A model generated the notes under the pieces. It had not been told where the DNA came from. It saw nothing but the letters and a program-made list of their open reading frames with translations, and did no database searches. 64,000 bases of DNA, from IMG/VR virus record IMGVR_UViG_2906610324_000001, positions 32,001 through 96,000 of that record; one strand, 5' to 3'. A program made the position numbers and the translations under genes. The stretch comes from a virus. Lineage: Duplodnaviria; Caudoviricetes. Numbering within the stretch: position 1 is the stretch's first letter; every line of letters begins with the position of its first letter. Shown piece by piece: positions 20,144-33,345 of this stretch.

Positions 20144-20482
20144 TCAGTCCTCGAGGTCAGCATCAGCCGGCATCTGCCGAAGCTTCTGGTAGGGGAATTC
20201 GCCGAGCTCGGGGTGCAGCCGATCTTGCTGGATCATTGCCGCGGCCGCCATGCGGGCGGTGCCGAGGCCACCGGGCAGTGTCAGCAACGTCAGCGCGATC
20301 GGCACCCACGTCGGGATATCCTGCACCTGGCCGTCGTCCTTCTTCTTCCCCCATCGGTTCACCGTGACGAGGTTTTGGCAGAACACGCGGGCGAATGATT
20401 TCCGGTTGAGACCTTGGCGCTCGAGCTCGGCATCGAAGTCGGCCGCCGAGATCTTGCGGTGGACAAATCGGGGTGGTGACAT
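20144..20482 (-). CDS. HTH (XRE-like) transcription regulator
   Basis: ISAADFDAELERQGLNRKSFARVF.QN..TVNRW.....IP.WV..AL. Confidence 0.7.
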   Translation of the reverse strand: MSPPRFVHRKISAADFDAELERQGLNRKSFARVFCQNLVTVNRWGKKKDDGQVQDIPTWVPIALTLLTLPGGLGTARMAAAAMIQQDRLHPELGEFPYQKLRQMPADADLED

Positions 20483-20574
20483 CTCAGGATCCTTTCCGGT
20501 TGGGCACATTCGCCCGGAATCGGCTGTAGCCGAGGGGGTAGCACAAAATCGATCGTAGCCGGGAGTCCCGGCGA

Positions 20575-20946
20575 TCAGGTGTAGTCGAGCGGATGGACCT
20601 GGCGCTTGCCGACGGTCATCACCGGCGGGATGACGGCTCCGCGCTTGATCGCAGCCAGCCACTGCGCCTCCGTTCCCGTGAAGCCGGGCGCGGCCTCCAC
20701 ATGGTGGTCGGCCAGCCACTTGGCCAAGGCCTCGGGCGAGGCGCACGGCGGCGAAACCGGTGTGCCGGCGCTGGTGGTCTCGTATAGCTGCCAATGCGTT
20801 CGCTCCGCGGCTGGCCAGGCCGGCATGCTGCGCGCGGGATCGGGCGAGGGCGCATCCGGGCCGGACTCGAGCAGCGGGACATATCGGCCGCCGGAGTTGC
20901 GGGGGTGCTGCCAGTCAGCGGGCACTTGCCTGACGGTTCTTGACAT
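20575..20946 (-). CDS. Conserved hypothetical phage protein
   Basis: R.VR.VP.DWQHP, WQLYETTS.GTP.SP...PE.LA.WL; AAAGG RBS. Confidence 0.75.
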   Translation of the reverse strand: MSRTVRQVPADWQHPRNSGGRYVPLLESGPDAPSPDPARSMPAWPAAERTHWQLYETTSAGTPVSPPCASPEALAKWLADHHVEAAPGFTGTEAQWLAAIKRGAVIPPVMTVGKRQVHPLDYT

Positions 20947-20982
20947 AGCAATCGCCTTTCAAAATAGATCGTATCCGGGGGA

Positions 20983-21255
20983 TCAGAACAGCGAGCCTTG
21001 CGCGGGCGCCGGCGGCTCAGGTTTAAGACGTCCGAGGTGCTCGACCGTCTCGCCTATGATCTGGTCGCGATCATCATCGATCAGCAGCCAACCATCATCG
21101 CCGCCCGCTGGATCGTAAACCACGAAGTCACCGCCCCAACGCTTGAAGATGCGTTCGGCCACCAGGCGCACGGCCGCGGGAACGTCCGTTGCGGCGTCGA
21201 ACCCGGCCCGCGTCACGATCTTGAAGCCGGCCGCCGTCAGTATCTGTTCGGTCAT
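20983..21255 (-). CDS. Hypothetical protein
   Basis: VVYDP....DGWLLI.DD; ends QGSLF (clamp-motif-like). Confidence 0.7.
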   Translation of the reverse strand: MTEQILTAAGFKIVTRAGFDAATDVPAAVRLVAERIFKRWGGDFVVYDPAGGDDGWLLIDDDRDQIIGETVEHLGRLKPEPPAPAQGSLF

Positions 21256-21446
21256 GTTCGCTGGCCCTTCGCTCGTTCAAGGGCCGCTTGCACCTCCCAA
21301 GCCTGATAGATCGCCCCTCGGGCTTCCGTAAGCTTCTCCCGAACCTCTGGCCGCAATCGCTGGTCATTCGAGTCCATGACGCGCGTGAGGCCGTCCAGGA
21401 GCCGGTTATAGGTGTCCCAGTGGAAAGGGTGCTTGCGTGCTGTCAC
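21252..21446 (-). CDS. Hypothetical protein
   Basis: GTG start with GAGGG RBS, coupled to neighbours. Confidence 0.6.
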   Translation of the reverse strand: MTARKHPFHWDTYNRLLDGLTRVMDSNDQRLRPEVREKLTEARGAIYQAWEVQAALERAKGQRT

Positions 21447-21754
21447 CGCCGCGCCCTCGCGGCTGCATGAACCTTGCGGGCGAGCTCGTCGCGGATCGCG
21501 CGGCCAACGTCGGAGTCCTCCATAGCGGTCAGCCAAAGGCGTTCATCGTCCTGGACGACGGCCGCCGCGGCTTCCTCCAGCCTTTTGCCGGCCATGAAGT
21601 GCGGCGCCACGCGGGCAATGAAGGTCTTTTCGTCGTCCGTCAGCTGTCGGCCCGGAGCCGGCGGCGCAGCGAAGGCACCTCCGAGCGCTTCGAGGACGCC
21701 GGCGCGCGCGCCTTCAACGGGACCGGAATAGATTTCAGTCTTCTTGGCCGTCAT
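21443..21754 (-). CDS. Hypothetical protein
   Basis: GGAGG RBS before MTAKKTE. Confidence 0.65.
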   Translation of the reverse strand: MTAKKTEIYSGPVEGARAGVLEALGGAFAAPPAPGRQLTDDEKTFIARVAPHFMAGKRLEEAAAAVVQDDERLWLTAMEDSDVGRAIRDELARKVHAAARARR

Positions 21755-21837
21755 GGGTGAACCTCCGTTCAAATCGGTCGTAGCCGAGGGGGTGATGGGA
21801 AATCGATCGTAGCCGGGGAGGTGGGCGCAGCCGGGGG

Positions 21838-24198
21838 CTATCCCGGCGGCGGCCCATCGATCACGACGAGCGCTGTGTTGACCATGGTACCGGCGGCCTT
21901 GAATGACCCCGCGGGCAGAGGGCGGAATTCCACCGCCATCGGTTCGAGCTTCGCCCGCTGGCGCGGACCGTCGGCGCAGATCGCGACGAGCCGGCCACCA
22001 GGCTTCAAGAACTTCCGGCCATGCGTGATGTGCTTGATGTCGGCGCCGTTCTCAAATGGCGGGTTCATCAAGACAATGTCGAAACGCTCGGCCGGCGGGT
22101 CGAAGTCCAGGAAGTCGCCGCAGTGGACGAACGTGCCGGGGAACGCTGCGCGCAGGTGCTCCGAAAGTTTTGCGTTGATCTCGACCGCCACCACCTGCAG
22201 ACCATCGGCGCAGTTGCGCGCAGCTTCGATCAGTGCGCCCGTTCCGGCGCTCGGCTCCAAGATGCGCTGCCCGGGCCGGATGTCGGCCGCCTCTGCCACG
22301 TCCGCGGCGAGTTCGCCCGATGTCGGGAAGAGCTGAGGCGCAACGACGACTTGCACGCCGCCGCCTTTCAGCATCGCCCGCATGGCCTCGAAACTATCCG
22401 CCGCCGTCGGCGCGGGCAAATCGGCCGTATCCGGGACCGGGGCGAGAACGCGCGGCCGAAGGTCCGCCGGCACGGCCTCGGCCTCGAACGGCACGCCAGC
22501 CAGTCCGCAGAACTGCCGCCAGGCGGTCGCCTCGTCGTCGCACCAATCTGTAACGTGCTGGCCGATGCCAACACGGAATTTGCCGAGTCCGGTGATGATC
22601 TCGGCCCCCGCGCGCTGCGCCTCCGCCTTGGCATCGCCGAGGCGCCGCGGCTCTTCCGCGGGCGCAACCGGGACCAGCGCCGCCACGGCCTCGGGCTCGT
22701 CCTGGGCCTCCCTCTCGCCCGGTGCGCCGATGATCTCGGCGACCGTTGCCAGCATGGCGTCAAGATCAACCGCGGGCGGCGCGACATACTCGGCGACGAA
22801 TTCGGCCGGCTCGGTTGGCTCCGGTGCTGGCGCGATCTTGGGCGGATCGACCCGCTTTGCATCCGTGATGTAAACTTGGACCTTCTTCCAGTATTCACCG
22901 GGCTTCGGCATCTGGCGGACGCGGTGCGCGCTGTGGGTCTCGGTCTCCTTCACTTTGCCGATATAGTGGAAATCCGAGAACTGCGGGCGCGCCTTCCATT
23001 CGGCCTCCGTCATCTCGCGGAATCCTTCGCCGGGATAGTTGCAGATCGGCGGGAGCTTGGCGGCGGACTTCGCCGCGGCGACGTTCTCCGCGCTCGGCGG
23101 CCGATAATCGCTGATGCTCTCCACGCTCCATTGCGCGCGCTTGGAGCGCGAGCCAGTCGGCGCGGTCGTCGTCATGCTGGAAACCGAACCGTTGGCGCCC
23201 TTGTTGACCTTCAGCACGGTAAGCCACTCGTCGCAGCGGCTCGTCTGCACCTGACCGCCGACCGCGAAGGCGAAGCGGTCCGCAAGCGGGTTGGCGGTCG
23301 CCTCCGCTCCGATCTGCTCGGCCAGCATCGCCCGTTCATAGGCCAGCCGGTTGTCATAGTGCGCAATCCAGCGGGCGCGCCGAGGCCCGGAGCGCTCCAG
23401 GCTCGGAATCGCAATCGCGGCGGCCTGCGCGGCGGTGATGACGTTCCCATCAATCGCCGACCAAAGGCCCATTGGCCCCTCATATTGCGAGGCTGGCGGG
23501 TCGCGCGGATAATCGGCCAGCGGAAACGACATCGACCAATAACCGCCGACATTCGCCACGGCCAAGCCGGCCGCGCGCTGCTTCTCGGGGTCATTGATGC
23601 CGGCGACGATTTGCCAGGCCTTCAGCTGCCTTTCGGTCTCCGCTTGCTGGCGCTCCACCTTCCGCTTGTCGGACTCAATGCCCTTGATGCGGCGATGACG
23701 CACCGCCGGCAGTTCCTTGTATTTCGCATGAGCGATTGCGCCGGCCGCGCGCGCAGTCCAATAATTCGAGGTGTCCCAGAGCCTGACCGCCTTGCGCATG
23801 TTGCTGTGTATGCGCTCTTGATCCTTGCGGGCACGCTTCTCGCTGTGGTGCCCAACCAAAATAGGCTGCCCCCCATAGAAGCGCTCGGCGATCTCATCGG
23901 ACACTTTCCGCGCGCTCTCGGCTTCCGCCAAGCGCTTTTCGCTATACCCCTCGAAGCGGTCGGCGCGCTGCTCGGCGCGGTCGGTCAGCGTGGTGTCTTC
24001 GTCGCCGATCTCGCCACACATCTCAATCAGCAAGTCTTCGGCGCCGGGGCTCCAGGTTGGTTTGACGAACAGTTCTTGACGCGGCGCCCACTTGAAGCCG
24101 GCGGCCTTCACGCGCGCGTAATCCTCGGCGTCGAGCCGGTGCGCCGGATAAAGCCGCAGCTTGTTGTCATCGGGCGAATAGGTGGCGGAATGCTGCAT
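21838..24198 (-). CDS. DUF3560-domain protein fused to an N6-adenine methyltransferase
   Basis: ATYSPDDNKLRLY, GFKWAP, GQPILVGHHSEKRARKD (DUF3560); QLFPT, ILEPSAGTG, VLMNPPF (gamma-class MTase). Confidence 0.9.
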   Translation of the reverse strand: MQHSATYSPDDNKLRLYPAHRLDAEDYARVKAAGFKWAPRQELFVKPTWSPGAEDLLIEMCGEIGDEDTTLTDRAEQRADRFEGYSEKRLAEAESARKVSDEIAERFYGGQPILVGHHSEKRARKDQERIHSNMRKAVRLWDTSNYWTARAAGAIAHAKYKELPAVRHRRIKGIESDKRKVERQQAETERQLKAWQIVAGINDPEKQRAAGLAVANVGGYWSMSFPLADYPRDPPASQYEGPMGLWSAIDGNVITAAQAAAIAIPSLERSGPRRARWIAHYDNRLAYERAMLAEQIGAEATANPLADRFAFAVGGQVQTSRCDEWLTVLKVNKGANGSVSSMTTTAPTGSRSKRAQWSVESISDYRPPSAENVAAAKSAAKLPPICNYPGEGFREMTEAEWKARPQFSDFHYIGKVKETETHSAHRVRQMPKPGEYWKKVQVYITDAKRVDPPKIAPAPEPTEPAEFVAEYVAPPAVDLDAMLATVAEIIGAPGEREAQDEPEAVAALVPVAPAEEPRRLGDAKAEAQRAGAEIITGLGKFRVGIGQHVTDWCDDEATAWRQFCGLAGVPFEAEAVPADLRPRVLAPVPDTADLPAPTAADSFEAMRAMLKGGGVQVVVAPQLFPTSGELAADVAEAADIRPGQRILEPSAGTGALIEAARNCADGLQVVAVEINAKLSEHLRAAFPGTFVHCGDFLDFDPPAERFDIVLMNPPFENGADIKHITHGRKFLKPGGRLVAICADGPRQRAKLEPMAVEFRPLPAGSFKAAGTMVNTALVVIDGPPPG

Positions 24199-24243
24199 GT
24201 GTTTTCATCCTTTCAACTTGCGCACAATCGCGCGGGGCTGCTT

Positions 24244-24272
24244 CTCTAATTTGTGTCGGCCGAATCTGTCAA
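24244..24272 (-). promoter_or_regulatory. Putative sigma70 promoter for the DUF3560-MTase operon
   Basis: Minus strand TTGACA-N17-TTAGAG, with GCCGACA in the spacer. Confidence 0.5.
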
Positions 24273-24327
24273 TCGTGTTTGCAAAATCGGCCGTAGCTCG
24301 GGGATGGAAAATCGATCGTAGCCGGGA

Positions 24328-25230
24328 CTAGTGCGCAGTGCCGACGCGCAGGAGTGCCAAGGCGTGATACTCGCTGCCCTCGGCGGCCTTGGCCTTTACG
24401 AATGCCTCGGCCTCGTCGTCGCGGCTCACGCCGTTGCGGACAAATATTGAAGACTCGGCGTCCGCCTGAATCTCAAGCGTGCCGGTGTCGCTGTTCTCGA
24501 ACAGGCCCCATCCTTCCGAGCAAGCGCGGTCATCCTGCCCGATGAATCGCGCCGCGGGCGCAACCGGAAGGCCGGCGGCCGCTCGGCGATAGGCCTCGGC
24601 CGCCTCGTCAGCGTCGGAGACCGCTTCCGCAATCGTGCCGTCCTCGTCGCTGAACATGCCGCGCATCTGGTCAATCTGATGGGTGCAGGCGTCGAGCGCG
24701 CCGGCCAGGTCGCGGGCGATCTGGCGCCAGTCCTGCGCAGGCGCAACCGGGACTGTGCCGCCGACAATCTCCAATTCCTCGACCCGGAAGAAGTCGCCGC
24801 GCATTTCGCCGACGCGCTCAAAATAGGCTTCCGCTAGCTCGTCAGGATCGGCCGGCTTGTCCTCGTCCATCCGTGCGGCCCAATTCTCGGCCGCGATCTC
24901 ACGGCGCCAGGCGCGCGCCGTGTCGCTGTTAGGATAGAGGCGCGTTTCGTCGCCGTGCCGGGTTTCATGGGTAGCCACGGCGAGCGGTGGCAGCGTCACG
25001 GTCCGCTCTTCGATGATGCAGGGGCCGTCAACGGCATCTTCCCATAGCTCGCTGATATTGTCCGCCGTCGCGGCCTCGACCGCGGCCAGGCGCTCGGGGG
25101 TCCGCTTGAGGATGTCGCGCAGGCTCGTGCGGACATATTCCACCGCCTCGGACTGCGTGGCGTGCACCGTGGTTTCGGTCCCGCAGTTGTCGCCCTCAGT
25201 GGTGCAAGTCCAAATCGTGATTGTGCTCAT
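24328..25230 (-). CDS. Acidic hypothetical protein (anti-defence candidate)
   Basis: 300 aa, D/E-rich, AAAGGAG RBS. Confidence 0.75.
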   Translation of the reverse strand: MSTITIWTCTTEGDNCGTETTVHATQSEAVEYVRTSLRDILKRTPERLAAVEAATADNISELWEDAVDGPCIIEERTVTLPPLAVATHETRHGDETRLYPNSDTARAWRREIAAENWAARMDEDKPADPDELAEAYFERVGEMRGDFFRVEELEIVGGTVPVAPAQDWRQIARDLAGALDACTHQIDQMRGMFSDEDGTIAEAVSDADEAAEAYRRAAAGLPVAPAARFIGQDDRACSEGWGLFENSDTGTLEIQADAESSIFVRNGVSRDDEAEAFVKAKAAEGSEYHALALLRVGTAH

Positions 25231-25274
25231 TGTGATGATCTCCTTTCAAAAACAACCGTAGCCAAGGGGCGGAA

Positions 25275-25625
25275 TCAGTCGCGGGCGGGGGGATTGGTGC
25301 GGGTTTCGAGGCCGCGCGCGTGGCGCTCGGCGCCCTCTACGGATTTCAGCGCGCGCGCCACGTAATCCGCTGCATTGTTGGCGTCGGCGATCCGCAGGTG
25401 ATTGCGCGCGGTGCGGATCAACTGCGCGGCAAGCCGGACACGCTCCAGGCGGGAGGCCGGCGGCGTTTCCAATAGCGACAACTGCGCGTCACGCTTCTGC
25501 AGGCGCTCAATCTCGGCCAGCGCCAAGTCAGCTTGTGCGCTCGGGCTGTCGCTGTCCTCGTGCGGAACGTCAACATTCAGCGCGCCAAGAATCGAGTCGG
25601 TAAAGTCGGTGCAGGTGTAAGTCAT
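25275..25625 (-). CDS. Hypothetical protein
   Basis: Repeat A + AAAGG RBS upstream; YVARALKSVEGA.RHA. Confidence 0.75.
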   Translation of the reverse strand: MTYTCTDFTDSILGALNVDVPHEDSDSPSAQADLALAEIERLQKRDAQLSLLETPPASRLERVRLAAQLIRTARNHLRIADANNAADYVARALKSVEGAERHARGLETRTNPPARD

Positions 25626-25765
25626 TTGGCTTTCGTCCTTTCGTTTTGCGCACTATCGCGCAGATGGTGGAGCGACCGCGGCCAGGTGCGCGCGTCATCC
25701 ACCGCGCAAAATCGGCCGTAGTCGGGAGGTGCGCCGCCGGCCGGGAAATCAGCTGGCCCCGGGGG

Positions 25766-26173
25766 TTACTCGGCGAGCTCTTCCAGGGTGACGCCGTCTT
25801 CGGCCGCATACTCGGAAATCAGAGTCAGCGCCCAATCTTCCGCCGCGCCGATCATTTCGCCGTCGCCGCCGCCGTGTTTCGAGTTGACCCTGGCGCATGC
25901 GTCCGCGGTCCATCGTTCAAGGCCGGGAACGTCGCCGAAAAAGTCGCGCGCGCGTTCCAAAACGGATTCCTCCGACAAGCACGCGAGGCCGTAAATCCCG
26001 GCGATGTGCTCGGCGTCGTAAAGCAGCGTCAATCCGTCATCGCGGGTTGAGCGCTGGCGCGCGTAGCGCCAGGCTACGCCGTAGCGTTGCAGCGCGGAGC
26101 GGACGCGCCATCGATACTTTGAAGCCTCGTTAACGAGCGTGGCGAGCGGCGAGCGGGGCAAGGTGAGATGCAT
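25766..26173 (-). CDS. Hypothetical protein
   Basis: AAAGG RBS before MHLTLPRS. Confidence 0.65.
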   Translation of the reverse strand: MHLTLPRSPLATLVNEASKYRWRVRSALQRYGVAWRYARQRSTRDDGLTLLYDAEHIAGIYGLACLSEESVLERARDFFGDVPGLERWTADACARVNSKHGGGDGEMIGAAEDWALTLISEYAAEDGVTLEELAE

Positions 26174-26220
26174 AACGGTTCCTTTGTTCTGTGATGGGAA
26201 ATCGGCCGGCGGCGGGACTG

Positions 26221-26499
26221 TTAGCAATTCACTTCGTGAAAGCCGCGCACACCGTTCAAGACCTTGAAGCCCGGCGGGGAACGATCGCCCTTGCCAATCC
26301 GCATAGTGGCAACCGCCGGCTTTCCCGTTGCCGCCAGGTCCGCGCAGTAGTCCGCGAATGCCTTTTCTGCATCGGCCGCGCGCTTAATCTCGACTTCGCG
26401 CCGTGGGAGCGGGCTTTTGTCCTCTCCGATGCAAAGCGCCACGCTAACGAATGCGCCGTTACGTTCCGCCGCGTAGCTATTCAAGATCAGTTTCGCCAT
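26221..26499 (-). CDS. Hypothetical protein
   Basis: Repeat A + AAAGGAG before MAKLILNS; G.RSPPGF motif. Confidence 0.7.
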   Translation of the reverse strand: MAKLILNSYAAERNGAFVSVALCIGEDKSPLPRREVEIKRAADAEKAFADYCADLAATGKPAVATMRIGKGDRSPPGFKVLNGVRGFHEVNC

Positions 26500-26586
26500 G
26501 TCGTTTAACTCCTTTCGAATTGCGCACCATTGCGCCGAGAAAATCGGCCGCAGCCGAGGGATTGAGGAAATCGGCCGCAACCGGGA

Positions 26587-27000
26587 CTAGGCCGCGGCGG
26601 CTTGCTCGGCCGGCTTTTCGTCGGTCTGCGAAACGTCGAAAACCGGTACCAGGATGAACCGCACCGACTCCGCCGCGGCCTCGGCCGCGGCGCCGTCCGC
26701 GCTCGGCGCCGCTGAGGCCTCGGCCGTTGCGCGCCGGCCGGACGGCGCAAAGATGTAGATTGCGGACTCGCCTTTGCGGACCGCGCGGCCGGCGGCAAGC
26801 CATTGATTGAAGCCGCCCAGCATAGTTGCGCCTTCGCATTGCATCGCCGCCAGCATGTGATTTTTTCCGGATATCGGCCGCGCGTCCGCGGTGAGGATCG
26901 GCGCGCGCTGCAGCCAAAGCGCCTTCTGCTCTTCCGTCATGTTGGCAATCTGGCGCGCCAGTTGCGCGGCCTTTTCTTTGTTGGGATTCGGTTTCCGCAT
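26587..27000 (-). CDS. Stand-alone ArdC N-terminal (ssDNA-binding) domain protein
   Basis: SGKN.ML...Q...AT.LGGFNQWL..GR.VRKGE.AI.IFAP.....F..VPVFDVSQTD. Confidence 0.85.
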   Translation of the reverse strand: MRKPNPNKEKAAQLARQIANMTEEQKALWLQRAPILTADARPISGKNHMLAAMQCEGATMLGGFNQWLAAGRAVRKGESAIYIFAPSGRRATAEASAAPSADGAAAEAAAESVRFILVPVFDVSQTDEKPAEQAAAA

Positions 27001-27070
27001 GGTCTGTTTTCCTTTCCGTTTGCGCACAATCGCGCGTGTTGCATTCCGTGAGGCCGAGGCGCGCCGCGGC

Positions 27071-27283: not shown

Positions 27284-28381
27284 CTAGCTGGCGCGGATCG
27301 CGCAGAAAGGCGCAACCGGGAGGGATGGCCGAGGCGCGCCGAGCGATGACGAGGCCAGGAAGCGCGCGGCGCGGGAAGGCGCAACCGGGATAGGGGCCGC
27401 GGAGTTGGGCGCGGGCGCAACCGGGAGGGCATCGACCGTATCCGGGAGGGAAGCCGCCGCGGTTTCGACGCCGGCGGAATTGTTTGCGACAAGCCGCAAC
27501 CGCGGCGCCTCGGCCTCGGCCTTGGCTGCAGCTGCGCGCGCCTCGGCCTCTTGCTCGGCGCGCCGGCCGGCCTCGGCCTCGGCCTTTGCCGCGGCTTTGG
27601 CCTCGGCCTCGGCCGCGCGAACGACGGCGCGGCGCCGCGCTTCAATTTCCAGCCATGCCATACCGCCGAGGCGCGACCGATAGTCTGCAATCTGCGCGCC
27701 GAGCTCGGCCGCGCGTTCCTCGTCGGCGCCGGCCAAAATCTCGGCCTCGGCCGAGGCAATGAGGTAGTGCCCGCGGTAGAAGTCGGCGCGCGTCAACCCG
27801 CCGGCCTCGGCGGTTTCCGGCAAGGCCGAGGCCTCGGCGGAAAGCGCGACATGATCGAAACGGCCGCGGCGATATTCGGCCGTCCGCGCGTTGCATTCCT
27901 CGGCCGGATATTCGGCGCCGGTAGCGTCACAGATGGCAGAAACGATGGACGGGACCGCGACACAATCGGAACCGATTGCCGAGGCTTTCCCGAATTCCCG
28001 CGCGACCCGCGCGCGGTAGAAGGCGAAGGCAACGCGCAAGCCGCGGCCGATATTGACCGGCTTGCCAGGCAGTGAAACGGCTGGCGCGCGTACCACGGCG
28101 CCGCATACAAACGTCACAACGATGATAGGCGACTTGCCTAGCTTTTTCGTCGCGCTTGCCGGGATGACATAATCCGCCCATGGATCCGCCGCGCCGTCCG
28201 GGATATTGGCCGCGCCGGATCCGGCTTTCTGCGCCGGCAATGCGAGGCGCAGCAAATCGGCAATGCCGCGCCAGTTCGCGCCGTCGGGATTCGCGGTCGC
28301 GTTGTCATAGGCGAGGATCGCCAGCGCGCGCCGTTCCGTTGCCTTTGCGGCCTTGGCCGCGATCAAATCAACCTGTTGCAT
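27284..28381 (-). CDS. Ala-rich hypothetical protein with coiled-coil tail
   Basis: Repeat A + AAAGG before MQQVDLI. Confidence 0.7.
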   Translation of the reverse strand: MQQVDLIAAKAAKATERRALAILAYDNATANPDGANWRGIADLLRLALPAQKAGSGAANIPDGAADPWADYVIPASATKKLGKSPIIVVTFVCGAVVRAPAVSLPGKPVNIGRGLRVAFAFYRARVAREFGKASAIGSDCVAVPSIVSAICDATGAEYPAEECNARTAEYRRGRFDHVALSAEASALPETAEAGGLTRADFYRGHYLIASAEAEILAGADEERAAELGAQIADYRSRLGGMAWLEIEARRRAVVRAAEAEAKAAAKAEAEAGRRAEQEAEARAAAAKAEAEAPRLRLVANNSAGVETAAASLPDTVDALPVAPAPNSAAPIPVAPSRAARFLASSSLGAPRPSLPVAPFCAIRAS

Positions 28382-28476
28382 GGTCCATTGTCCTTTCTGA
28401 TTTGCGCACGATTGCGCCGAGAATTGAGGGAAGGCCGAGGCCAGGTTAGGCCGTAGCTTTGGCGCGGCGCCGCGCG

Positions 28477-28746
28477 TCAATCGCGGCGCGTATCACTTTT
28501 CTTGAACCGCGGCGCATAACGGCCGTTGAATGCACGCAATTCAGAAAAGGCGATATCGGCCGCGGCCTTGGCAATCCGGTATCGCGGATCGAATTTAATT
28601 CGGTCCGGAGTCAGTCCCATCGGACCGCGCGCCGGAATCCCCATTTCGGCCGCAAGGCCTTCTGTCACGGCGCCGAGGCGCGCGCCGGCCTCTTTGATCC
28701 GGTTATCCAACTCGGCCGCGGCGGCTTGGAATGCTGCAAAATCCAT
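28477..28746 (-). CDS. Hypothetical protein
   Basis: GPMGLTPD..K..P.Y..AK......F..LR.FN motif. Confidence 0.7.
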   Translation of the reverse strand: MDFAAFQAAAAELDNRIKEAGARLGAVTEGLAAEMGIPARGPMGLTPDRIKFDPRYRIAKAAADIAFSELRAFNGRYAPRFKKSDTRRD

Positions 28747-28754: not shown

Positions 28755-28943
28755 CTAGACGCTTTCGTCAAAGCGCGCGGCCTCAAAGTCGCGGCTTGCC
28801 TGTTCTGCCTCGGCGCCGGTAAGCATGCGGCGGCTTGTCGGATAATAGAACGCGCGCGTTCCGACCGGGATGAAATGCCCGTTGCGGTCATTGGCCGGAT
28901 ATTTGGTAATGATCCATCGCGGATCGCCGCCATAGCGTGCCAT
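28755..28943 (-). CDS. Hypothetical protein
   Basis: Repeat A + AAAGG before MARYGGDPRWI. Confidence 0.7.
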   Translation of the reverse strand: MARYGGDPRWIITKYPANDRNGHFIPVGTRAFYYPTSRRMLTGAEAEQASRDFEAARFDESV

Positions 28944-29008
28944 TGTAGTCTGTCCTTTCCAGTTTGCGCACAATCGCGCGGGAGACAAATTCGACGGCCG
29001 AGGCCGAG

Positions 29009-29149
29009 CTATTCCAGCATGTCCGCAATGAACCGGACCGCGGCCGGATATCGGCAGAAACTGCGCAGCAATGCGACGATTCCGCGCGCCGTGTAGTAAC
29101 CCGCCGGGATACCGTGCAAGTTATCCGGAATGAAGGTTTCGCGGTCCAT
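29009..29149 (-). CDS. Small hypothetical protein
   Basis: AGGA RBS; ends AVRFIADMLE. Confidence 0.55.
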   Translation of the reverse strand: MDRETFIPDNLHGIPAGYYTARGIVALLRSFCRYPAAVRFIADMLE

Positions 29150-29153
29150 TGGC

Positions 29154-29492
29154 CTAGTATCCTGCAGCCTCGGCGGAATAGTCGCGCTGGCCAGTCTCGG
29201 CGGTTTGCCAGTCCGGAAAGCGCGCGCCGTTTTCGGTATCGTTGTAACCCGCCGAAAGCCTATCGGCCGGGCAGGTGCAAACGCCATCGCGGGTTATGCG
29301 TCCAACGCAGTCCGCGCCATCGTTGCACCATTCGTTAGTCACGGTTTGCCCGTCGAAAGAAAAGATATTGGACTCGCGCGTCCATCCTTCGTCCGTTCTG
29401 GCGCCGTGCGAATGGTGCAACGTTTGGCCAGTCCGCAACGCGATACGGACAAGGCCGGATTTGTGATAGTGCCAAAAGCGCGCTGTTTTCAT
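29154..29492 (-). CDS. Hypothetical protein
   Basis: GAGGG RBS; ARFW...TDEGW...DC.GR....QRDYSAEAAGY. Confidence 0.7.
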   Translation of the reverse strand: MKTARFWHYHKSGLVRIALRTGQTLHHSHGARTDEGWTRESNIFSFDGQTVTNEWCNDGADCVGRITRDGVCTCPADRLSAGYNDTENGARFPDWQTAETGQRDYSAEAAGY

Positions 29493-29502: not shown

Positions 29503-29832
29503 TCACGGAAGGCGGTTAAAGACGGAATGATAGGCCGAGGCCTCGGCGATGCACTCGCGCGCGGCCTCAAGATTGCGAGCGCGCGCCATGGGCGAGTTTT
29601 TCGCGGCGCGCCGATAGTAAGCCGCCCAGTGCAAAGCCTCGGCCGCAAGCGCGCGGCGCGGCCGGCAAGATAGCCGCGACGTCCGCAAGGCAACCGGACC
29701 GGCCGCGCGTTCTGCGCGCGCCGTGAATTCCGTTCCGTTGCAGACAATCCAGAACGTTGCCACATTGTGGCGCCGGCCGCGCGCCTCGGCGCGTAGCGCG
29801 GAAATGGTGCGGCGGAATGCATCGCGGTTCAT
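29503..29832 (-). CDS. Hypothetical basic protein
   Basis: GGAG RBS, ATGA coupling. Confidence 0.55.
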   Translation of the reverse strand: MNRDAFRRTISALRAEARGRRHNVATFWIVCNGTEFTARAERAAGPVALRTSRLSCRPRRALAAEALHWAAYYRRAAKNSPMARARNLEAARECIAEASAYHSVFNRLP

Positions 29833-30233
29833 GCTGCGCGCTCCAGTTCGCAAGCCGCGGTCCATCCGGTTGCGCGATCATAGGAGGCCGCGCGCGCGAT
29901 CATTGGCGGCTTGCGCAATTCGTCATCTGGCGGAATCACGCCATAGCGTTCCGGCGCGGCGTCAAGTTTCGCCATGGCTGCAGCATGCTCGGCCGCGCGC
30001 CACACATTGAAGGCCGCGACGATATGCGCCGGTAGCGGTTCAGCGTATCGGACAAGCATGCCGATTCCGGTTCGCATGGCGCGGCGGACATCATCGCCAT
30101 TTGCTATCGATAGCTCATAGTCTGAAACGGAATGACGGATGCTAACCTCATAGCTCTCGGTTTCATCCGTGACGCGATAGTAGACGGTCCCCATGTAGGA
30201 ACATTTCCAAGTGAATTGCGGCTTGCGTGTCAT
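29829..30233 (-). CDS. Hypothetical protein
   Basis: AAAGG RBS; degenerate repeat A at ~30251. Confidence 0.65.
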   Translation of the reverse strand: MTRKPQFTWKCSYMGTVYYRVTDETESYEVSIRHSVSDYELSIANGDDVRRAMRTGIGMLVRYAEPLPAHIVAAFNVWRAAEHAAAMAKLDAAPERYGVIPPDDELRKPPMIARAASYDRATGWTAACELERAA

Positions 30234-30260: not shown

Positions 30261-30704
30261 TTAGATGACGCGAACGGTTGCGCCGGCCGGCAAATGAACC
30301 GCGCAACCGCCGTGAGAGTCGCGGCGCTTGATCTCCAGATGGACCGGCAGCCATCCGGTTGACTTCCCGACATAGAACCGGGACCGCGCGCCATCTGGCG
30401 CGGTGACTTCTACGCGCTTCCCTTCGAGGCCGATTAGTTGCGGCGCCAGCTGCGCGGGACAACGCGACCTAGTCGCGGCCGCATGATTGGCGCCGGCCTT
30501 CATTGTCGCGCGGTAGACTCGATAATGCTGGATTGTGCCGGGCTTGAATGCGCCGAGGCCTGGAGGGACCGCGGCCGAGGGAAGCCAGGCCGCGACGTCG
30601 CGCGCCCATCTCTCGGCGACACTGAAGCCAACGCAAGTATATCCGGCGCCGGATCGCAGAACATAAAGGCCTTGCTCGGCATTGATGGAATGAAAGTCAC
30701 TCAT
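30261..30704 (-). CDS. Conserved hypothetical phage protein
   Basis: Repeat A upstream; L.PQLIGLEG.RVEV.....RFYVGKSTGW.P.HLEI.RR.S.GG. Confidence 0.75.
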   Translation of the reverse strand: MSDFHSINAEQGLYVLRSGAGYTCVGFSVAERWARDVAAWLPSAAVPPGLGAFKPGTIQHYRVYRATMKAGANHAAATRSRCPAQLAPQLIGLEGKRVEVTAPDGARSRFYVGKSTGWLPVHLEIKRRDSHGGCAVHLPAGATVRVI

Positions 30705-30798
30705 CTCGGTTTGTCCTATTCGGTTTGCGCACAATCGCGCTTTGGTCCGCTTTGGCGTTCCGTTGTGCGGCGCGCCTCGGCGCCGCACCGTCGGAAAG

Positions 30799-31215
30799 TC
30801 AGTTGGAGGGAACGAAATTCATTCCCGTGCGGTCCAATGCCTCAAGTTTGAGGAAAGCGCGGACACGTTCCAAAGCATCCGGCCAAAGAATGACGCCGCC
30901 GCTTGTCGCCGGATCGTCGCTCCAATTGAGTCCGGCCAGAACGAAAGCCGGGCAAAAATCCCAATCGAATTGGACTTGATCGCGCTCGGAGTCCGTAAGG
31001 GATTGCCAAACGGTTTCGCAGTCTGGAGCGAGCCGGATCATGATATGGCGCATTTCGTATGCGCCCCATCCGTCACGGTATTGGTCAACTAGTTCCGCGG
31101 CGGCTTTGATTTCCGCGGGACGATCGTTGCGCCATTCCGGGTTGCTGGCGTCAATACAGGCTTCCCAGAGGCAAAGCGCGGCCTCGGCAATAAGCGGATT
31201 CAACTCGGTTTGCAT
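30799..31215 (-). CDS. Acidic hypothetical protein
   Basis: GAGGAG RBS; EAALCLWEA, FDWDFCP.F. Confidence 0.7.
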   Translation of the reverse strand: MQTELNPLIAEAALCLWEACIDASNPEWRNDRPAEIKAAAELVDQYRDGWGAYEMRHIMIRLAPDCETVWQSLTDSERDQVQFDWDFCPAFVLAGLNWSDDPATSGGVILWPDALERVRAFLKLEALDRTGMNFVPSN

Positions 31216-31227: not shown

Positions 31228-31332
31228 TCAAAGGCACGAATTCAGAAAAGCGCGCTTGCCGTCGCGCACCGCGGCGCGCCGAGTCCGCTTGTCGCTCGGC
31301 CGGCGGTCGGAATCATGCTTGCGATACTTCAT
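31228..31332 (-). CDS. 34-aa basic peptide (absent from ORF track)
   Basis: Repeat A + AAAGG, then MKYRKHDSDRRPSDKRTRRAAVRDGKRAFLNSCL*. Confidence 0.6.
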   Translation of the reverse strand: MKYRKHDSDRRPSDKRTRRAAVRDGKRAFLNSCL

Positions 31333-31424
31333 GGCCTTTTTCCTTTTCGAATTGCGCACAATTGCGCGGTTTCGGCGGTTTGCCGGTTATGCCGTGACGT
31401 GCACGGCATAGGCTGCAAATCGCG

Positions 31425-31664
31425 TTAGTTGATACGCTCGCAAGCGCCGGTTTCAGCGTTCCAGCGTATCAGCATATCGTTAGCTCGGATCGAAAGGCCG
31501 CGGGACATGCGGACGTCGCGCGGCGCCGGCCGGCCGGTTTCGTGAAACCATTGGCCGAGGCGGAATGCAATGTGCGTTGCGCTACTCCACAAGTGCGGAT
31601 TGGCCGAGGCCGGCGCGGCATAGCCGGCCGAGGCATAGGCGGTTAAGTCATCGGGCTTTGCCAT
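31425..31664 (-). CDS. Hypothetical protein
   Basis: GAGGAG RBS before MAKPDDL; NPHLWSS....AF.LG. Confidence 0.65.
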   Translation of the reverse strand: MAKPDDLTAYASAGYAAPASANPHLWSSATHIAFRLGQWFHETGRPAPRDVRMSRGLSIRANDMLIRWNAETGACERIN

Positions 31665-31677: not shown

Positions 31678-31758
31678 TCAAAGGCAGCATACGAAAATGA
31701 CAAACGTTCCGACTAAAGCCGCCGCGCAGAACAGAACAAAATCAAGTGTATCGTCCAT
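31678..31758 (-). CDS. 26-aa hydrophobic peptide (absent from ORF track)
   Basis: Repeat A + AAAGG, then MDDTLDFVLFCAAALVGTFVIFVCCL*. Confidence 0.55.
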   Translation of the reverse strand: MDDTLDFVLFCAAALVGTFVIFVCCL

Positions 31759-31803
31759 TGGTCTAGCCTTTCGATTTGCGCACAATCGCGCGGTGGAAAA
31801 GTG

Positions 31804-32016
31804 TTAGCGGTTGCTGATGACTCGGAATCGGCTTTCGTGAACGCAAAGCCTTCCGCCATCCGCGAATTTGACGATGTGCCAGCCCGGCTGGATTGGTCCG
31901 CTTGCCGCGGTCCATCGCGCGATTTTCGCGACCTCTGGCGCGACGCTGGGAAAGCCGCCAATCGCTGGCGTGCCATGCAATTCAATGCGCGATCCGGTTT
32001 TGAGGGATTGAGACAT
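31804..32016 (-). CDS. Small SH3-like hypothetical protein
   Basis: GAGG RBS; GWHIVKFADGGRLCVHESRF. Confidence 0.65.
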   Translation of the reverse strand: MSQSLKTGSRIELHGTPAIGGFPSVAPEVAKIARWTAASGPIQPGWHIVKFADGGRLCVHESRFRVISNR

Positions 32017-32026
32017 GCTTGGCCTC

Positions 32027-32191
32027 TTAGCGGCGGTTGAGGCGCGCGCGGCGCCGGATCAGAAGGCGGCGAGGCTTTGCCGGAATGCAGTGGATTGCGA
32101 AGAGGACGAGCCAGCACGCGGAATAGATCGCTGCAAACGTGGCCAGAGTGAAAGCCGGGTTAGCGATGCAAAAGGAAATGAAGTCGTTCAT
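32027..32191 (-). CDS. Small membrane protein
   Basis: Repeat A + AAAGG before MNDFISFC; one TM and a basic tail. Confidence 0.55.
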   Translation of the reverse strand: MNDFISFCIANPAFTLATFAAIYSACWLVLFAIHCIPAKPRRLLIRRRARLNRR

Positions 32192-32238
32192 TTCGCCGGG
32201 CCTTTGAAGTTGCGCACAATCGCGCCGTGGTGACGCGT

Positions 32239-32267
32239 ACATGCGCAGATGTCGGCGCGGCCGTCAA
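32239..32267 (-). promoter_or_regulatory. Putative sigma70 promoter heading the minus-strand cluster
   Basis: Minus strand TTGACG-N17-GCATGT with GCCGACA in the spacer and an AT-rich upstream tract. Confidence 0.45.
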
Positions 32268-32333
32268 TGGGTAAAACGCAAAATTGCGAGAAAAAGTTGT
32301 ATTTGTTCGGCTGAGTATCGCAATATTGAGACG

Positions 32334-32657
32334 TTAGCCGTCTAGTGCAGCATTGATCCGGCCCAGCAATTCGGCGCGCTGGCGCCCGGTATCCGGTCTA
32401 ATTCCTGCAATGATCGCCCAAATCTGCCGTGCGATGTCAGGCCCAGCACCATTGGCCCGATACTGCGCCAGCGTGTTCTCGGACACGTAGAGCAGGCGCG
32501 CAGCTGCGGCATTCGAGAGGCTTGCGCCTTCCTGCCAGGCCCGGAATTCAGCCGCGCTGATTCTGAGTGAAACATCAGCGGAAGAGAAAGCCCGGCTTGC
32601 TGGCTTGCGCTTGGCCATTGGCTTGCTGGTCTTTGTGTCGGTCATTGGACGCCTCAA
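32334..32657 (-). CDS. HTH transcription regulator
   Basis: SAAEFRAWQ....LSNAAAARLL.VSENTLAQY. Confidence 0.75.
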   Translation of the reverse strand: MRRPMTDTKTSKPMAKRKPASRAFSSADVSLRISAAEFRAWQEGASLSNAAAARLLYVSENTLAQYRANGAGPDIARQIWAIIAGIRPDTGRQRAELLGRINAALDG

Positions 32658-32874
32658 GATTGAGTTATGCCGCAGTCATCCAACCCGCAACTATCACGGA
32701 ATTGAGTTGCTGCGGGCGCCGTCCCTGCTGTCATCCACCGTCAAGCGGTGGAACAGCGATTTGACAGCCGACTCAATTTGCGATTCAGAGCAAGCACGGT
32801 GACGCATTGTCGCTGCAATCCAACGCCCGCCAGGTCGCACCGCCTTGGCGGGTTTCGCATGTCAGGGGCACGGC

Positions 32875-33045
32875 ATGGGCGAGGTAGTCGAGCTATCGCC
32901 CGACGCGCCGCGCCGTGCCCGCCGACAGCGGCGCCAGCCTGCAGTCATCATTGTGTTGCCACTGGTTCGGGTCGAGCGCTGCATCAGCGCCGCCGACGCA
33001 TGGGATGCAATGCCAAGCGATAGCGCGCCGCATGGTGCGGCATAG
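32875..33045 (+). CDS. Small hypothetical protein
   Basis: AGGGG RBS; MGEVVEL...AVIIVLP.VRVER. Confidence 0.45.
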   Translation: MGEVVELSPDAPRRARRQRRQPAVIIVLPLVRVERCISAADAWDAMPSDSAPHGAA

Positions 33046-33264
33046 CCGGGCGGATCGGCGTGCGCCTGCCACGACAAGCGGACGTCACCACAAGGCGAGC
33101 TAGTCGAGAGAGAAAGGCGGGCGGTTGCCGCGCGCGGCGCGGCGCCAGCGGCGCCAGCGTATCCGCTGACACTATTCGGCCAGGCTGAACCACGGCCGCA
33201 CCAATCCGCCGCCACCGCAACCGACACGCCAGCCCGCGCCAAGCCAAGCCAGCGCCTCGAGGCC

Positions 33265-33345
33265 AAGGGGTATGGGGTCGGAAAGTCTAGGAACCGACGG
33301 GACCCCCTACCGCACGGGGGCTCATTTGCACAATTTTTTCTGCCG
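33265..33345 (+). other. Putative cos (packaging initiation) region
   Basis: GGGGTATGGGGTCGGAAAGTC...ACCGC...ATTTTTT immediately upstream of the terS start; G-run pattern resembles that of HNH/cos HK97-like phages. Confidence 0.5.

What the first reader, a model, noticed from the sequence alone, without database searches (positions are those of the whole stretch)
20144..33345. A temperate-phage 'leading region': first-injected, repeat-punctuated anti-defence array next to cos
Seen: ~26 co-oriented minus-strand genes start ~0.6 kb left of the putative cos and read away from it. They include a DUF3560-MTase and ArdC-N (families known from conjugative-plasmid leading regions) and many tiny or acidic orphans. 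The block is bracketed by two HTH genes, punctuated by two repeat families, and has distinct word usage. Known: in lambda the end packaged last (left of cos in this orientation) is ejected first, and T7/T5 place anti-defence genes in first-entering DNA. Inference: a pre-early module expressed during entry, with its own cis-regulatory code. The orphans are candidate new anti-RM/anti-CRISPR/anti-defence proteins.
Basis: partly seen in the sequence, partly recalled or inferred. Interest (0 to 1): 0.9.

Follow-up and report, generated by a model that had tools for sequence, protein, structure and literature searches.

The report
Repeat-punctuated accessory gene array beside phage terminase
A Bradyrhizobium prophage carries about 25 small same-direction genes next to its DNA-packaging genes, most preceded by the same 16-base hairpin motif and two related to plasmid anti-restriction genes; a first-entering counter-defence role is plausible but untested, and this copy has lost part of its packaging genes.

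Summary
The array is real. There are 25 minus-strand genes (20144-32645), including a DUF3560-methyltransferase and an ArdC-N protein. Two repeat families occur only in this block of the 121-kb record.

Motif A (GCGCGATTGTGCGCAA) lies 15-22 nt before the start codon of 11 genes. Five Bradyrhizobium prophage relatives carry co-oriented arrays of 9-12 copies, 67 copies in all. The core genes are conserved and other cassettes vary.

The block is not an independent insertion. In every relative it lies between the HNH gene and TerS, reading away from TerS.

TerS and TerL codons 1-174 are deleted, so a working cos cannot be assumed here.

Anti-defence function has homology support for two genes only. 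Entry order and expression timing could not be tested.

Motif A most resembles the start-associated sequences of Cluster K mycobacteriophages, whose function is unknown. It probably forms an RNA hairpin, but covariation is thin and its folding energy is no better than shuffled sequence.

Verdict: a new variant of known kinds, with the interpretation partly supported. First-stage readers of this scan had already noted both repeats and the module on this same DNA.

The parts
32334..32645 (-). Gene 1, 103 aa, HTH-like, promoter-proximal
   Evidence: HTH_17 E 0.0087, below cut-off. Weak paralogue of the last gene. Orthologues in all 5 relatives at 39-53% identity.
32262..32267 (-). TTGACG, -35-like box of a candidate internal promoter upstream of the first motif A
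   Evidence: Read by eye. The surrounding segment is conserved in all 6 genomes. Inference only.
32210..32225 (-). Motif A copy
32027..32191 (-). 54-aa hydrophobic protein
31776..31791 (-). Motif A copy
31678..31758 (-). 26-aa hydrophobic micro-ORF after motif A
   Evidence: A 26-codon ORF follows the equivalent motif in G005.
31425..31664 (-). 79-aa orphan
31352..31367 (-). Motif A copy (GCGCAATTGTGCGCAA)
31228..31332 (-). 34-aa basic micro-protein, conserved in all 6 genomes
30799..31215 (-). 138-aa acidic orphan (pI 4.2), found only in this genome among the six
30725..30740 (-). Motif A copy
30261..30704 (-). 147-aa protein, phrog_10759 (unknown function), variable cassette
   Evidence: PHROG E 1.9e-44. 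Homologues on 151 plasmids. Present only in G004 among relatives.
29829..30233 (-). 134-aa orphan
29503..29832 (-). 109-aa orphan
29154..29492 (-). 112-aa orphan
29009..29149 (-). 46-aa ORF, doubtful, this genome only
28964..28979 (-). Motif A copy
28755..28943 (-). 62-aa basic protein, the most conserved gene of the array (84-100% identity)
   Evidence: Only 21 protein clusters known.
28477..28746 (-). 89-aa protein, phrog_7560 (unknown function)
28402..28417 (-). Motif A copy (GCGCAATCGTGCGCAA)
27284..28381 (-). 365-aa core protein: globular domain plus a long coiled coil, fold not assigned
   Evidence: 38 homologues, those with a source name all Bradyrhizobium/Nitrobacteraceae. AlphaFold pLDDT 81. 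No PDB match apart from the coiled coil.
27020..27035 (-). Motif A copy
26587..27000 (-). 137-aa ArdC-N (ssDNA-binding domain only)
   Evidence: Pfam E 2.3e-6, phrog_7245, plasmid ArdC-like hits
26520..26535 (-). Motif A copy (GCGCAATGGTGCGCAA)
26541..26583 (-). Two tandem motif B copies
26221..26499 (-). 92-aa orphan
26199..26214 (-). Motif B copy (degenerate)
25766..26173 (-). 135-aa orphan, variable
25709..25724 (-). Motif B copy
25646..25661 (-). Motif A copy (GCGCGATAGTGCGCAA)
25275..25625 (-). 116-aa orphan, variable
25238..25273 (-). Degenerate motif B directly before the SD of the 300-aa gene
24328..25230 (-). 300-aa acidic protein (pI 4.4), variable
   Evidence: Weak phrog_38215 hit.
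24284..24324 (-). Two tandem motif B copies
24244..24272 (-). Candidate sigma-70-type promoter, TTGACA-N17-TTAGAG
   Evidence: Sequence read. Conserved in G003 and G005. Inference only.
24218..24233 (-). Motif A copy
21838..24198 (-). 786-aa DUF3560 plus class I SAM methyltransferase
   Evidence: About 50% identical, 80%-coverage homologues on conjugative plasmids.
22418..22433 (-). Motif B copy inside the methyltransferase gene, just before the methyltransferase domain
   Evidence: Present at the same place in G003, G001 and G005.
21771..21815 (-). Two tandem motif B copies
21443..21754 (-). 103-aa orphan
21252..21446 (-). 64-aa orphan
20983..21255 (-). 90-aa acidic orphan (pI 4.5), core gene
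20951..20981 (-). Degenerate motif B before the SD of the 123-aa gene
20575..20946 (-). 123-aa core protein with relatives in many viral contigs
20517..20561 (-). Two tandem motif B copies
20500..20515 (-). Motif A variant GGGCGAATGTGCCC, with both sides of one stem pair swapped
20144..20482 (-). Last gene, 112 aa, XRE-type HTH-like
32646..33360 (.). Non-coding region upstream of gene 1. The part 33049-33360 resembles the TerS-proximal intergenic DNA of intact relatives and is a possible cos remnant.
33361..33505 (+). 145-bp junction filler replacing TerS and TerL codons 1-174
33509..34669 (+). 5'-truncated TerL, equivalent to residues 175-561 of the intact relative

Best explanation
Shown:
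- The block is the accessory gene module of a family of HK97-like Bradyrhizobium prophages.
- In every relative it lies between the packaging HNH gene (plus a variable cargo hotspot) and TerS. It reads away from TerS across a 0.3-0.6 kb intergenic region.
- It is built from small cassettes. About a dozen core genes are kept and the others are swapped in and out.
- 11 of the 25 genes are preceded by motif A, GCGC[G/A]-A[T/C/A]NG-TGCGC-AA. A Shine-Dalgarno sequence follows 4-7 nt later and the start codon 15-22 nt later. Several inner-half genes have motif B, CGGCTACGRYCGATTT, at the equivalent place.
- In this window the prophage has lost TerS and the first 174 codons of TerL, so this copy cannot package DNA.

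Inferred:
- cos lies in the intergenic region next to TerS. If so, the array forms one end of the virion DNA and is transcribed inward from that end.
- The module serves establishment and counter-restriction. The orphan DUF3560-methyltransferase would modify phage DNA, and ArdC-N would bind single-stranded DNA as in plasmid ArdC. The orphans may include further counter-defence or host-takeover proteins.
- Motif A acts in the mRNA as a 5-bp, 4-nt-loop hairpin just 5' of the ribosome-binding site. It would be read by a phage-specific factor that sets translation or stability of each cassette together.
- The shared motifs also act as joints for cassette exchange.
For: Synteny:
- Five proviruses carry 9-12 co-oriented motif A copies.
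- In each, the array lies next to an intact TerL of 561-586 aa, whose remnant-matching part is 43-96% identical to the window's. Each also carries the DUF3560-methyltransferase.
- The window is collinear with G003 at 95-97% on both sides of the deletion.
- A distant array in L101 (GC 52%) abuts the HNH gene with a 17-nt gap at one end. A TerS-like gene starts 308 bp from its other end. That leaves the TerS side as the only room for cos there.
- Between G003 and G005, the TerS-proximal ~250 bp of the intergenic region changes with the terminase type. The ~340 bp next to gene 1 stays with the array.

Cassettes:
- Ends of homology blocks fall within 35 nt of motif A or B 3.3 times more often than expected, 242 against 73.

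Motif A:
- 67 copies, every one followed by a Shine-Dalgarno sequence and an ORF of 25 codons or more. 63 of 67 start with ATG.
- The distance from the upstream stop codon varies from 3 to 116 nt, so the motif belongs to the downstream start site.
- All 300 stem cells pair. There is one compensatory C:G to G:C swap, and G.U alternates with A-U 46:14.
- The motif is identical across genomes whose TerL is only 43% identical.
- It is absent from the rest of the record, and multi-copy arrays turned up only in Bradyrhizobium genomes.

Function:
- ArdC-N and the methyltransferase are supported.
- ArdC counters type I restriction during conjugation (PMC7213743).
- Methyltransferases and anti-defence genes cluster in plasmid leading regions (PMC11541004).
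Against: - No termini, polarity or RNA data exist for this phage family, so 'virion end' and 'early expression' are inference.
- 23 of 25 genes have no functional homology. A confident model of the 365-aa core protein matched no known fold.
- The ArdC-like protein lacks the metalloprotease domain of ArdC.
- Hairpin evidence is thin. Only one compensatory event was seen, in one orthologous position.
- Loop and stem sequences are almost invariant, which fits a DNA site as well as an RNA site.
- Predicted folding energies (-7 to -9 kcal/mol) are no better than shuffled sequence, z -1.3 to +1.3.
- Block ends cluster at gene boundaries in any mosaic genome, so the joint enrichment does not prove motif-mediated recombination. 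The pairs counted are also not independent.
- No integrase or repressor was found, so the lysogeny circuit that would control the array is unknown.
Confidence: 0.55

Rival explanations
1. Motif A is a DNA operator of the stoperator kind. One of the array's HTH proteins, or the unknown immunity repressor, binds the 10-12 co-oriented sites. This blocks transcription through the array in the lysogen.
For: - The sites are asymmetric, all in one orientation relative to transcription, and lie in short intergenic spaces. L5 stoperators have these properties (PMC9283540; PMC3203893 contrasts the two motif types).
- The motif is nearly invariant, including the would-be loop.
- It has partial dyad symmetry, GCGC-N6-GCGC. 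The double swap to GGGC...GCCC keeps that symmetry.
- HTH-like genes bracket the array.
- Hairpin energy is not above shuffles.
Against: - The spacing to the Shine-Dalgarno sequence and the start codon is fixed at 15-22 nt in 67 of 67 copies. A transcription block does not need that.
- Position 5 is G in 46 of the 60 distinct copies, opposite T. That is a G.U pair in RNA but a broken palindrome in DNA.
- The sites are confined to one module, not spread over the genome as stoperators are.
- Distant relatives have hairpins of unrelated sequence at the same pre-SD place, which points to structure rather than one protein's site.
Confidence: 0.2
2. Motif A is a compact promoter for a phage-specific transcription factor or polymerase, so that each cassette is its own transcription unit starting just before its Shine-Dalgarno sequence.
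For: - The motif can sit only 3 nt after the previous stop codon, leaving no room for a standard promoter, yet every copy precedes a gene.
- The sequence is invariant across diverged genomes.
- From my own knowledge of phage N4: it uses small DNA hairpins as early promoters.
Against: - No phage RNA polymerase-sized ORF other than tail proteins was seen in the record, and no polymerase or sigma factor appeared among the proteins sent to Pfam.
- Sigma-70-like TTGAC(A/G) boxes with 17-nt spacing lie upstream of two motif copies, which places the motif in the 5' untranslated region.
- 16 nt is too short for a two-part sigma promoter.
Confidence: 0.08
3. The array is prophage cargo. It would be expressed from the lysogen for superinfection exclusion, host fitness or self-methylation, not an entry-phase counter-defence module.
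For: - The array is kept at 97% identity to G003 in a prophage that has lost packaging, which is compatible with host-level selection.
- It lies beside a hotspot that holds a PARIS defence pair in this genome.
- It contains hydrophobic micro-proteins.
- Its word usage differs from the rest of the phage.
Against: - The same core is kept in all intact relatives, next to the terminase genes.
- ArdC-N and orphan methyltransferases are establishment functions on plasmids (PMC7213743, PMC11541004).
- The deletion may simply be recent.
Confidence: 0.15
4. The block is an independent mobile element, such as a fragment of a plasmid or ICE leading region, that inserted into the terminase region and truncated TerL.
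For: - TerL is truncated exactly at the block's edge.
- The block carries plasmid-type genes.
- Its tetranucleotide usage deviates from the rest of the phage.
Against: - Intact relatives have the same block at the same place with a complete TerS and TerL.
- The truncation is a 1.2-kb deletion or replacement relative to G003, not an insertion.
- No recombinase or relaxase appeared among the 24 block ORFs sent to Pfam, and direct-repeat ends were not looked for.
- An ancient capture of plasmid genes is still possible.
Confidence: 0.03

Closest known systems
Start-associated sequences (SAS) of Cluster K mycobacteriophages (PMC3203893)
   Same: A short asymmetric conserved sequence with symmetric outer bases. 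It lies a fixed few nt before start codons and in one orientation. It is restricted to the non-structural genes and has a strong ATG bias. It is conserved in front of unrelated genes, is absent from the host genome, and its function is unknown.
   Different: SAS (GGGATAGGAGCCC) contains the Shine-Dalgarno sequence itself. Motif A ends 4-7 nt before it and can form a 5-bp hairpin. The host phylum and the motif sequence also differ. Here the motif is confined to one 12-kb module beside the terminase genes.
Anti-defence islands in the leading region of conjugative plasmids (PMC11541004)
   Same: Co-oriented small genes in a region inferred to enter first. Orphan methyltransferases and ArdC-type genes are present. 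Full-length DUF3560-methyltransferase homologues sit next to ssb and DUF932 on a MOBF conjugative plasmid.
   Different: The phage DNA is double-stranded, with no oriT. By eye, no Frpo-like single-strand promoter with a -35/-10 mimic was seen. Entry order is unproven.
PeSL promoter-early/stem-loop cassettes of T4-type phages (PMC2839356, PMC4122927)
   Same: Repeated regulatory motifs flank small, variable, mostly unknown genes. They coincide with the ends of insertions, deletions and replacements between relatives.
   Different: PeSLs are a terminator stem-loop plus an early promoter. Motif A has no promoter between the hairpin and the ribosome-binding site.
Stoperators of mycobacteriophage L5 and Cluster A (PMC9283540)
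   Same: Many copies of an asymmetric 13-16-bp site in intergenic DNA, oriented with transcription.
   Different: Stoperators are spread over the whole genome and are not tied to start codons. Repressor binding is shown for them and untested here.
Early regions of T7 (gene 0.3, Ocr) and T5 (pre-early first-step-transfer DNA)
   Same: The idea that counter-defence genes lie in the DNA that enters first and are read in the direction of entry.
   Different: For T7 and T5 the stepwise entry has been shown experimentally (my own knowledge of these phages). Here neither termini nor entry mode is known, and cos phages such as lambda inject quickly and then circularise.
acr-aca anti-CRISPR operons
   Same: A small HTH gene closes the operon. 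The top, non-significant, fold match of the last gene is Aca1.
   Different: No Acr homologue was found. The HTH assignment is weak, and the operon is far longer.

Membership tests
Plasmid leading-region anti-defence island | Lies in the DNA that enters the recipient first (next to oriT) | not testable with these tools
   There is no oriT. Position at a virion end is inferred from synteny with TerS only.
Plasmid leading-region anti-defence island | Enriched in anti-restriction, SSB and orphan methyltransferase genes | tested here: inconclusive
   2 of 25 genes qualify: ArdC-N and the DUF3560-methyltransferase. The rest are orphans.
Plasmid leading-region anti-defence island | Frpo/ssi single-strand promoters (long hairpins that mimic -35/-10) | not tested
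   No dedicated Frpo search was run. By eye, the repeats are 16-nt motifs next to the ribosome-binding site, and Rfam gave no hit.
ArdC (R388-type anti-restriction protein) | N-terminal ssDNA-binding domain (PF08401) | tested here: met
   28.3 bits against a cut-off of 22.6
ArdC (R388-type anti-restriction protein) | C-terminal metalloprotease domain | tested here: not met
   The protein is 137 aa and has the N-terminal domain only.
DUF3560-methyltransferase of conjugative plasmids | DUF3560 domain plus a C-terminal class I SAM methyltransferase, collinear over the full length | tested here: met
   DUF3560 at 113 bits, Methyltransf_25/11 and MTS domains. 80% coverage at about 50% identity to plasmid proteins.
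Start-associated sequences (Cluster K type) | Conserved asymmetric motif at a fixed short distance before start codons, in one orientation, in non-structural genes only | tested here: met
   67 of 67 copies lie 15-22 nt before a start codon. All are on the gene strand. None occurs outside the block.
Start-associated sequences (Cluster K type) | The motif itself contains the Shine-Dalgarno core | tested here: not met
   The Shine-Dalgarno sequence lies 4-7 nt downstream of the motif.
L5-type stoperators | Sites dispersed across the genome and bound by the immunity repressor | tested here: not met
   The sites are confined to the 12-kb block. Binding cannot be tested with these tools.
T4-type PeSL | Stem-loop followed by an early promoter, at the ends of indels between relatives | tested here: inconclusive
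   Block ends are enriched 3.3-fold near motifs A and B. No promoter lies between the hairpin and the Shine-Dalgarno sequence.
HK97-like cos packaging module | HNH, TerS, full TerL (ATPase plus nuclease), portal, ClpP-type protease, HK97 capsid | tested here: not met
   HNH scores 20.8 bits. Portal, protease and capsid are present. TerS is absent and TerL lacks residues 1-174 in this copy. The relative G003 has both.
PARIS (AriA/AriB), neighbouring cargo | AriA ABC-type ATPase plus AriB DUF4435/Toprim protein, adjacent | tested here: met
   PADLOC AriA E 2.3e-23 and AriB E 3e-16. Pfam AAA_15/21 and DUF4435.

The most novel reading that the evidence does not exclude
Motif A is the RNA target of a dedicated phage-encoded factor. 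The 62-aa basic protein is a candidate, because it is as conserved as the motif. This factor would switch on, or process, about ten cassettes at once. The result would be a translational regulon for the first-entering end of a cos phage, loaded with undescribed counter-defence proteins and exchanging cassettes through the shared motif.
Probability: 0.2. Interest if true: 0.8.

Novelty: new variant of a known kind. Interest (0 to 1): 0.55.

Why it matters
- If the array is the first DNA to enter and is read inward from cos, temperate cos phages would share the 'leading region' logic of conjugative plasmids and of T7 and T5. The 20-odd conserved orphans would then be a focused list of candidate counter-defence proteins for rhizobia, which matters for soybean inoculant ecology.
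- Start-associated sequences have been unexplained since 2011. A second, unrelated example has a clear hairpin form, 67 copies and a natural compensatory variant. That makes the question testable with a simple reporter.

Tried and rejected
- Megablast of the block against isolated phages found no match.
- Rfam at E up to 1 gave only a chance snoRNA hit.
- Sequencing runs: no RNA holder listed. Read laying was not used because only contigs were on offer.
- The sigma-70 and terminator consensus scan was no better than shuffles.
- No tyrosine integrase was found in the record. Pfam on proteins from the record ends showed recombination and ATPase genes and an IS66 transposase, but no lysogeny switch.
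- ESM Atlas gave no usable hit for the 365-aa protein and only unnamed viral clusters for the 123-aa protein.
- Fold search of the 365-aa model found nothing beyond coiled coils.
- PDB sequence searches for both HTH-like proteins and for ArdC-N found nothing.
- Distant relatives found through the 123-aa protein lack a PF20441-type TerL, so they say nothing about terminase adjacency.
- The 15-mer repeat in L084 is a pentapeptide-repeat coding region, not a regulatory motif.
- The first 615 nt of contig L100 showed no homology that could mark a cos end.
- The plasmid context of the phrog_10759 homologue was uninformative.
- The 87-aa ORF at 31713-31976 was dropped as a gene because motif A and a micro-ORF lie inside it.
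- The reading 'independent inserted element' was rejected.

Full report
**Where the window lies.** It is bases 32001-96000 of a 121-kb IMG/VR 'provirus' record. GC is about 63%, with a 52% trough at 17-20 kb.

Gene order along the window:
- A plus-strand replication module: beta clamp, C5 methyltransferase, Toprim primase, N6/N4 methyltransferase and DnaB.
- A DUF6456 gene, then an HNH endonuclease at 16530-16883, which scores 20.8 bits, just under the Pfam cut-off.
- A low-GC PARIS pair on the minus strand.
- The block under study, on the minus strand.
- On the plus strand, a TerL fragment, portal, ClpP-type protease and HK97-type capsid.

**The observation.**
- Refining the start codons gives 25 co-oriented genes from 32645 down to 20144.
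- Pfam recognises only the DUF3560-methyltransferase, ArdC-N and a sub-threshold HTH.
- PHROGs adds 'anti-restriction protein' for ArdC-N and three families of unknown function.
- Motif A (GCGCGATTGTGCGCAA) has 10 copies plus one variant, all on the gene strand. None of 100 shuffles reached that count.
- Motif B (CGGCTACGRYCGATTT) has at least 11 copies, often as tandem pairs, in the inner half of the block.
- Neither motif occurs elsewhere in the record beyond single chance-level near-matches.
- The block's tetranucleotide usage correlates at only 0.56-0.75 with the other phage modules. Those correlate at 0.86-0.93 with each other.

The 'terminase' ORF at 33509-34669 matches only the nuclease domain.
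- It aligns to residues 219-596 of a 610-aa TerL from an isolated phage.
- It aligns to residues 175-561 of the closest relative's TerL at 96% identity.
- The missing N-terminal part and TerS are nowhere in the 121 kb.
- Compared with relative G003, a 1.2-kb segment holding TerS and the start of TerL is replaced by 145 bp at 33361-33505.
- This prophage copy is therefore packaging-defective, and a working cos cannot be assumed here.

**Relatives.**
- The exact 16-mer picks out IMG/VR proviruses with many copies. Five of them carry 9-12 co-oriented copies each.
- With the ribosome-binding site added to the pattern, multi-copy arrays turned up only in Bradyrhizobium genomes; other taxa gave single scattered hits.
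- All five relatives have the DUF3560-methyltransferase and a full-length TerL beside the array. In G003, TerS and an ATPase-plus-nuclease TerL are present.
- The order HNH, variable hotspot, array on the opposite strand, 0.3-0.6 kb gap, then TerS and TerL, holds in all of them.
- The PARIS pair is found only in this genome's hotspot.
- A distant array in L101 (GC 52%) was found through the 62-aa protein. It abuts the HNH gene with a 17-nt gap, and its first gene is 308 bp from a TerS-like gene.
- Between G003 and G005 the TerS-proximal ~250 bp of the gap changes with the terminase type, while the rest stays with the array.
- Both observations place cos on the TerS side. That is inference, not mapping.
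- By analogy with lambda (my own knowledge), where the end packaged last leaves first, the array would enter first and be read in the direction of entry. Nothing here tests that.

**Cassettes.** About a dozen genes are present in all six genomes. Others are present or absent in patches, and the 138-aa acidic protein is unique to this genome among the six compared. Ends of homology blocks lie within 35 nt of a motif 3.3 times more often than expected. Gene boundaries attract such ends in any mosaic genome, and the pairs are not independent.

**Motif A.**
- Across six genomes there are 67 copies.
- Each is followed 4-7 nt later by an AAGG-type Shine-Dalgarno sequence and 15-22 nt later by a start codon. 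63 of these are ATG. Each opens an ORF of at least 25 codons.
- The distance to the upstream stop codon ranges from 3 to 116 nt, so the motif belongs to the downstream start.
- A 5-bp stem with a 4-nt loop pairs in all 300 cells. There is one compensatory C:G to G:C swap, at the last gene in all six genomes, and G.U alternates with A-U 46:14.
- The hairpin appears in 10 of 11 minimum-energy folds and leaves the Shine-Dalgarno sequence mostly open. Its energy is no better than shuffled sequence.
- The loop is almost invariant. This argues for sequence-specific recognition rather than bare structure.
- In more distant arrays, hairpins of unrelated sequence, or sigma-70-like promoters, occupy the same pre-SD place.
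- Two motif A copies lie downstream of conserved TTGAC(A/G)-N17 boxes, which puts the motif in the 5' untranslated region.
- My ranking is an RNA element (about 0.55), a DNA operator of the stoperator kind (0.2), then a compact promoter (0.08).

**Motif B.**
- About 79 near-matches occur across the six genomes.
- One subtype forms a UACG-loop hairpin followed by a run of T. The other subtype does not fold, yet keeps the same conserved letters. It is therefore a sequence motif, possibly a protein site.
- One copy lies inside the methyltransferase gene, just before the methyltransferase domain, at the same place in G003, G001 and G005. This suggests an old gene junction.

**Function.**
- Full-length DUF3560-methyltransferase homologues (about 50% identity) lie mostly on conjugative plasmids. 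On the one plasmid whose neighbourhood was inspected, the gene sits beside ssb and DUF932.
- ArdC-like hits occur on actinobacterial and other plasmids.
- ArdC counters type I restriction in the recipient (PMC7213743). Leading regions are enriched in methyltransferases and anti-defence genes (PMC11541004).
- The ArdC-like protein here lacks the protease domain.
- The 365-aa core protein is confined to 38 protein clusters; those with a source name are all Bradyrhizobium or Nitrobacteraceae. It folds confidently but matches no solved fold beyond a coiled coil.
- The last gene's model is weak, and XRE-type HTH proteins, Aca1 first, head a non-significant list.
- A counter-defence role is reasonable for two genes and open for the rest.

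**Comparison with known systems.**
- The closest match for motif A is the start-associated sequence of Cluster K mycobacteriophages. That is a 13-bp asymmetric motif before start codons of non-structural genes, with an ATG bias and unknown function (PMC3203893).
- L5 stoperators (PMC9283540) and T4 PeSLs (PMC2839356, PMC4122927) share other features.
- The gene content and geometry recall plasmid leading regions, though no Frpo-like promoter was evident by eye.
- A study of spontaneously produced Bradyrhizobium phages predicted cos packaging for two prophages from TerL phylogeny (PMC10127595). Whether those prophages belong to this family was not checked.

**Verdict.** The module is a real, conserved and unusual feature of a Bradyrhizobium phage family. 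The 'first-injected anti-defence' reading is coherent and partly supported by synteny and two gene families, but it is unproven. This copy is a packaging-defective prophage. Novelty: a new variant of known kinds. Interest: 0.55.

Noticed in passing
window 17539-19874 (-): A PARIS defence pair: AriA at 18393-19874 and AriB at 17539-18396. GC is 52% against 63% for the phage. It is present only in this genome, in the hotspot between the HNH gene and the array. PARIS is known to be triggered by the anti-restriction protein Ocr, so its position beside a putative anti-restriction array is curious.
   Followed up: partly
window 33361-34669 (+): TerS and TerL codons 1-174 are deleted and replaced by 145 bp that open a Lys/Arg-rich reading frame. 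The prophage copy is packaging-defective, although the array is 97% identical to that of an intact relative.
   Followed up: yes
window 22418-22433 (-): A motif B copy lies inside the DUF3560-methyltransferase gene, just before the methyltransferase domain, at the same place in G003, G001 and G005. It may be a fossil junction of two formerly separate genes. Some plasmids annotate the two halves as separate proteins.
   Followed up: no
window 5327-7252, 10381-11700, 21838-24198: The phage carries three DNA methyltransferases: a C5 type, an N6/N4 type and the DUF3560-linked one. That is a heavy investment in self-modification.
   Followed up: no
L101 (NCBI JAWVGW010008182.1), L102, L103: These contigs hold distant arrays of small co-oriented genes that contain the 62-aa protein. 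Each gene is preceded by a hairpin of different sequence, such as GGGC-N4-6-GCCC directly before the Shine-Dalgarno sequence in L103, or by a TTGACA-N17-TATAAT promoter in L101.
   Followed up: partly
L087 8936-12843; L082 9935-19716: Other viral contigs found through the 123-aa protein have their own intergenic repeats. L087 has CTAACGTTCGAGCTAA six times. L082 has a TTGACAAATTTGT promoter-like box four times.
   Followed up: no
window 27284-28381 (-): The 365-aa core protein gives a confident AlphaFold model (pLDDT 81) with a globular domain that matches no solved structure, followed by a 60-residue coiled coil.
   Followed up: partly
window 32027-32191 and 31678-31758 (-): The two genes after the leading HTH gene encode hydrophobic micro-proteins of 54 and 26 aa, each behind a motif A copy.
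   Followed up: no
L072 1632-3203 (record bases 97632-99203, beyond the window): An IS66-family transposase lies in the right part of the provirus record. No tyrosine integrase was found anywhere in the record.
   Followed up: no
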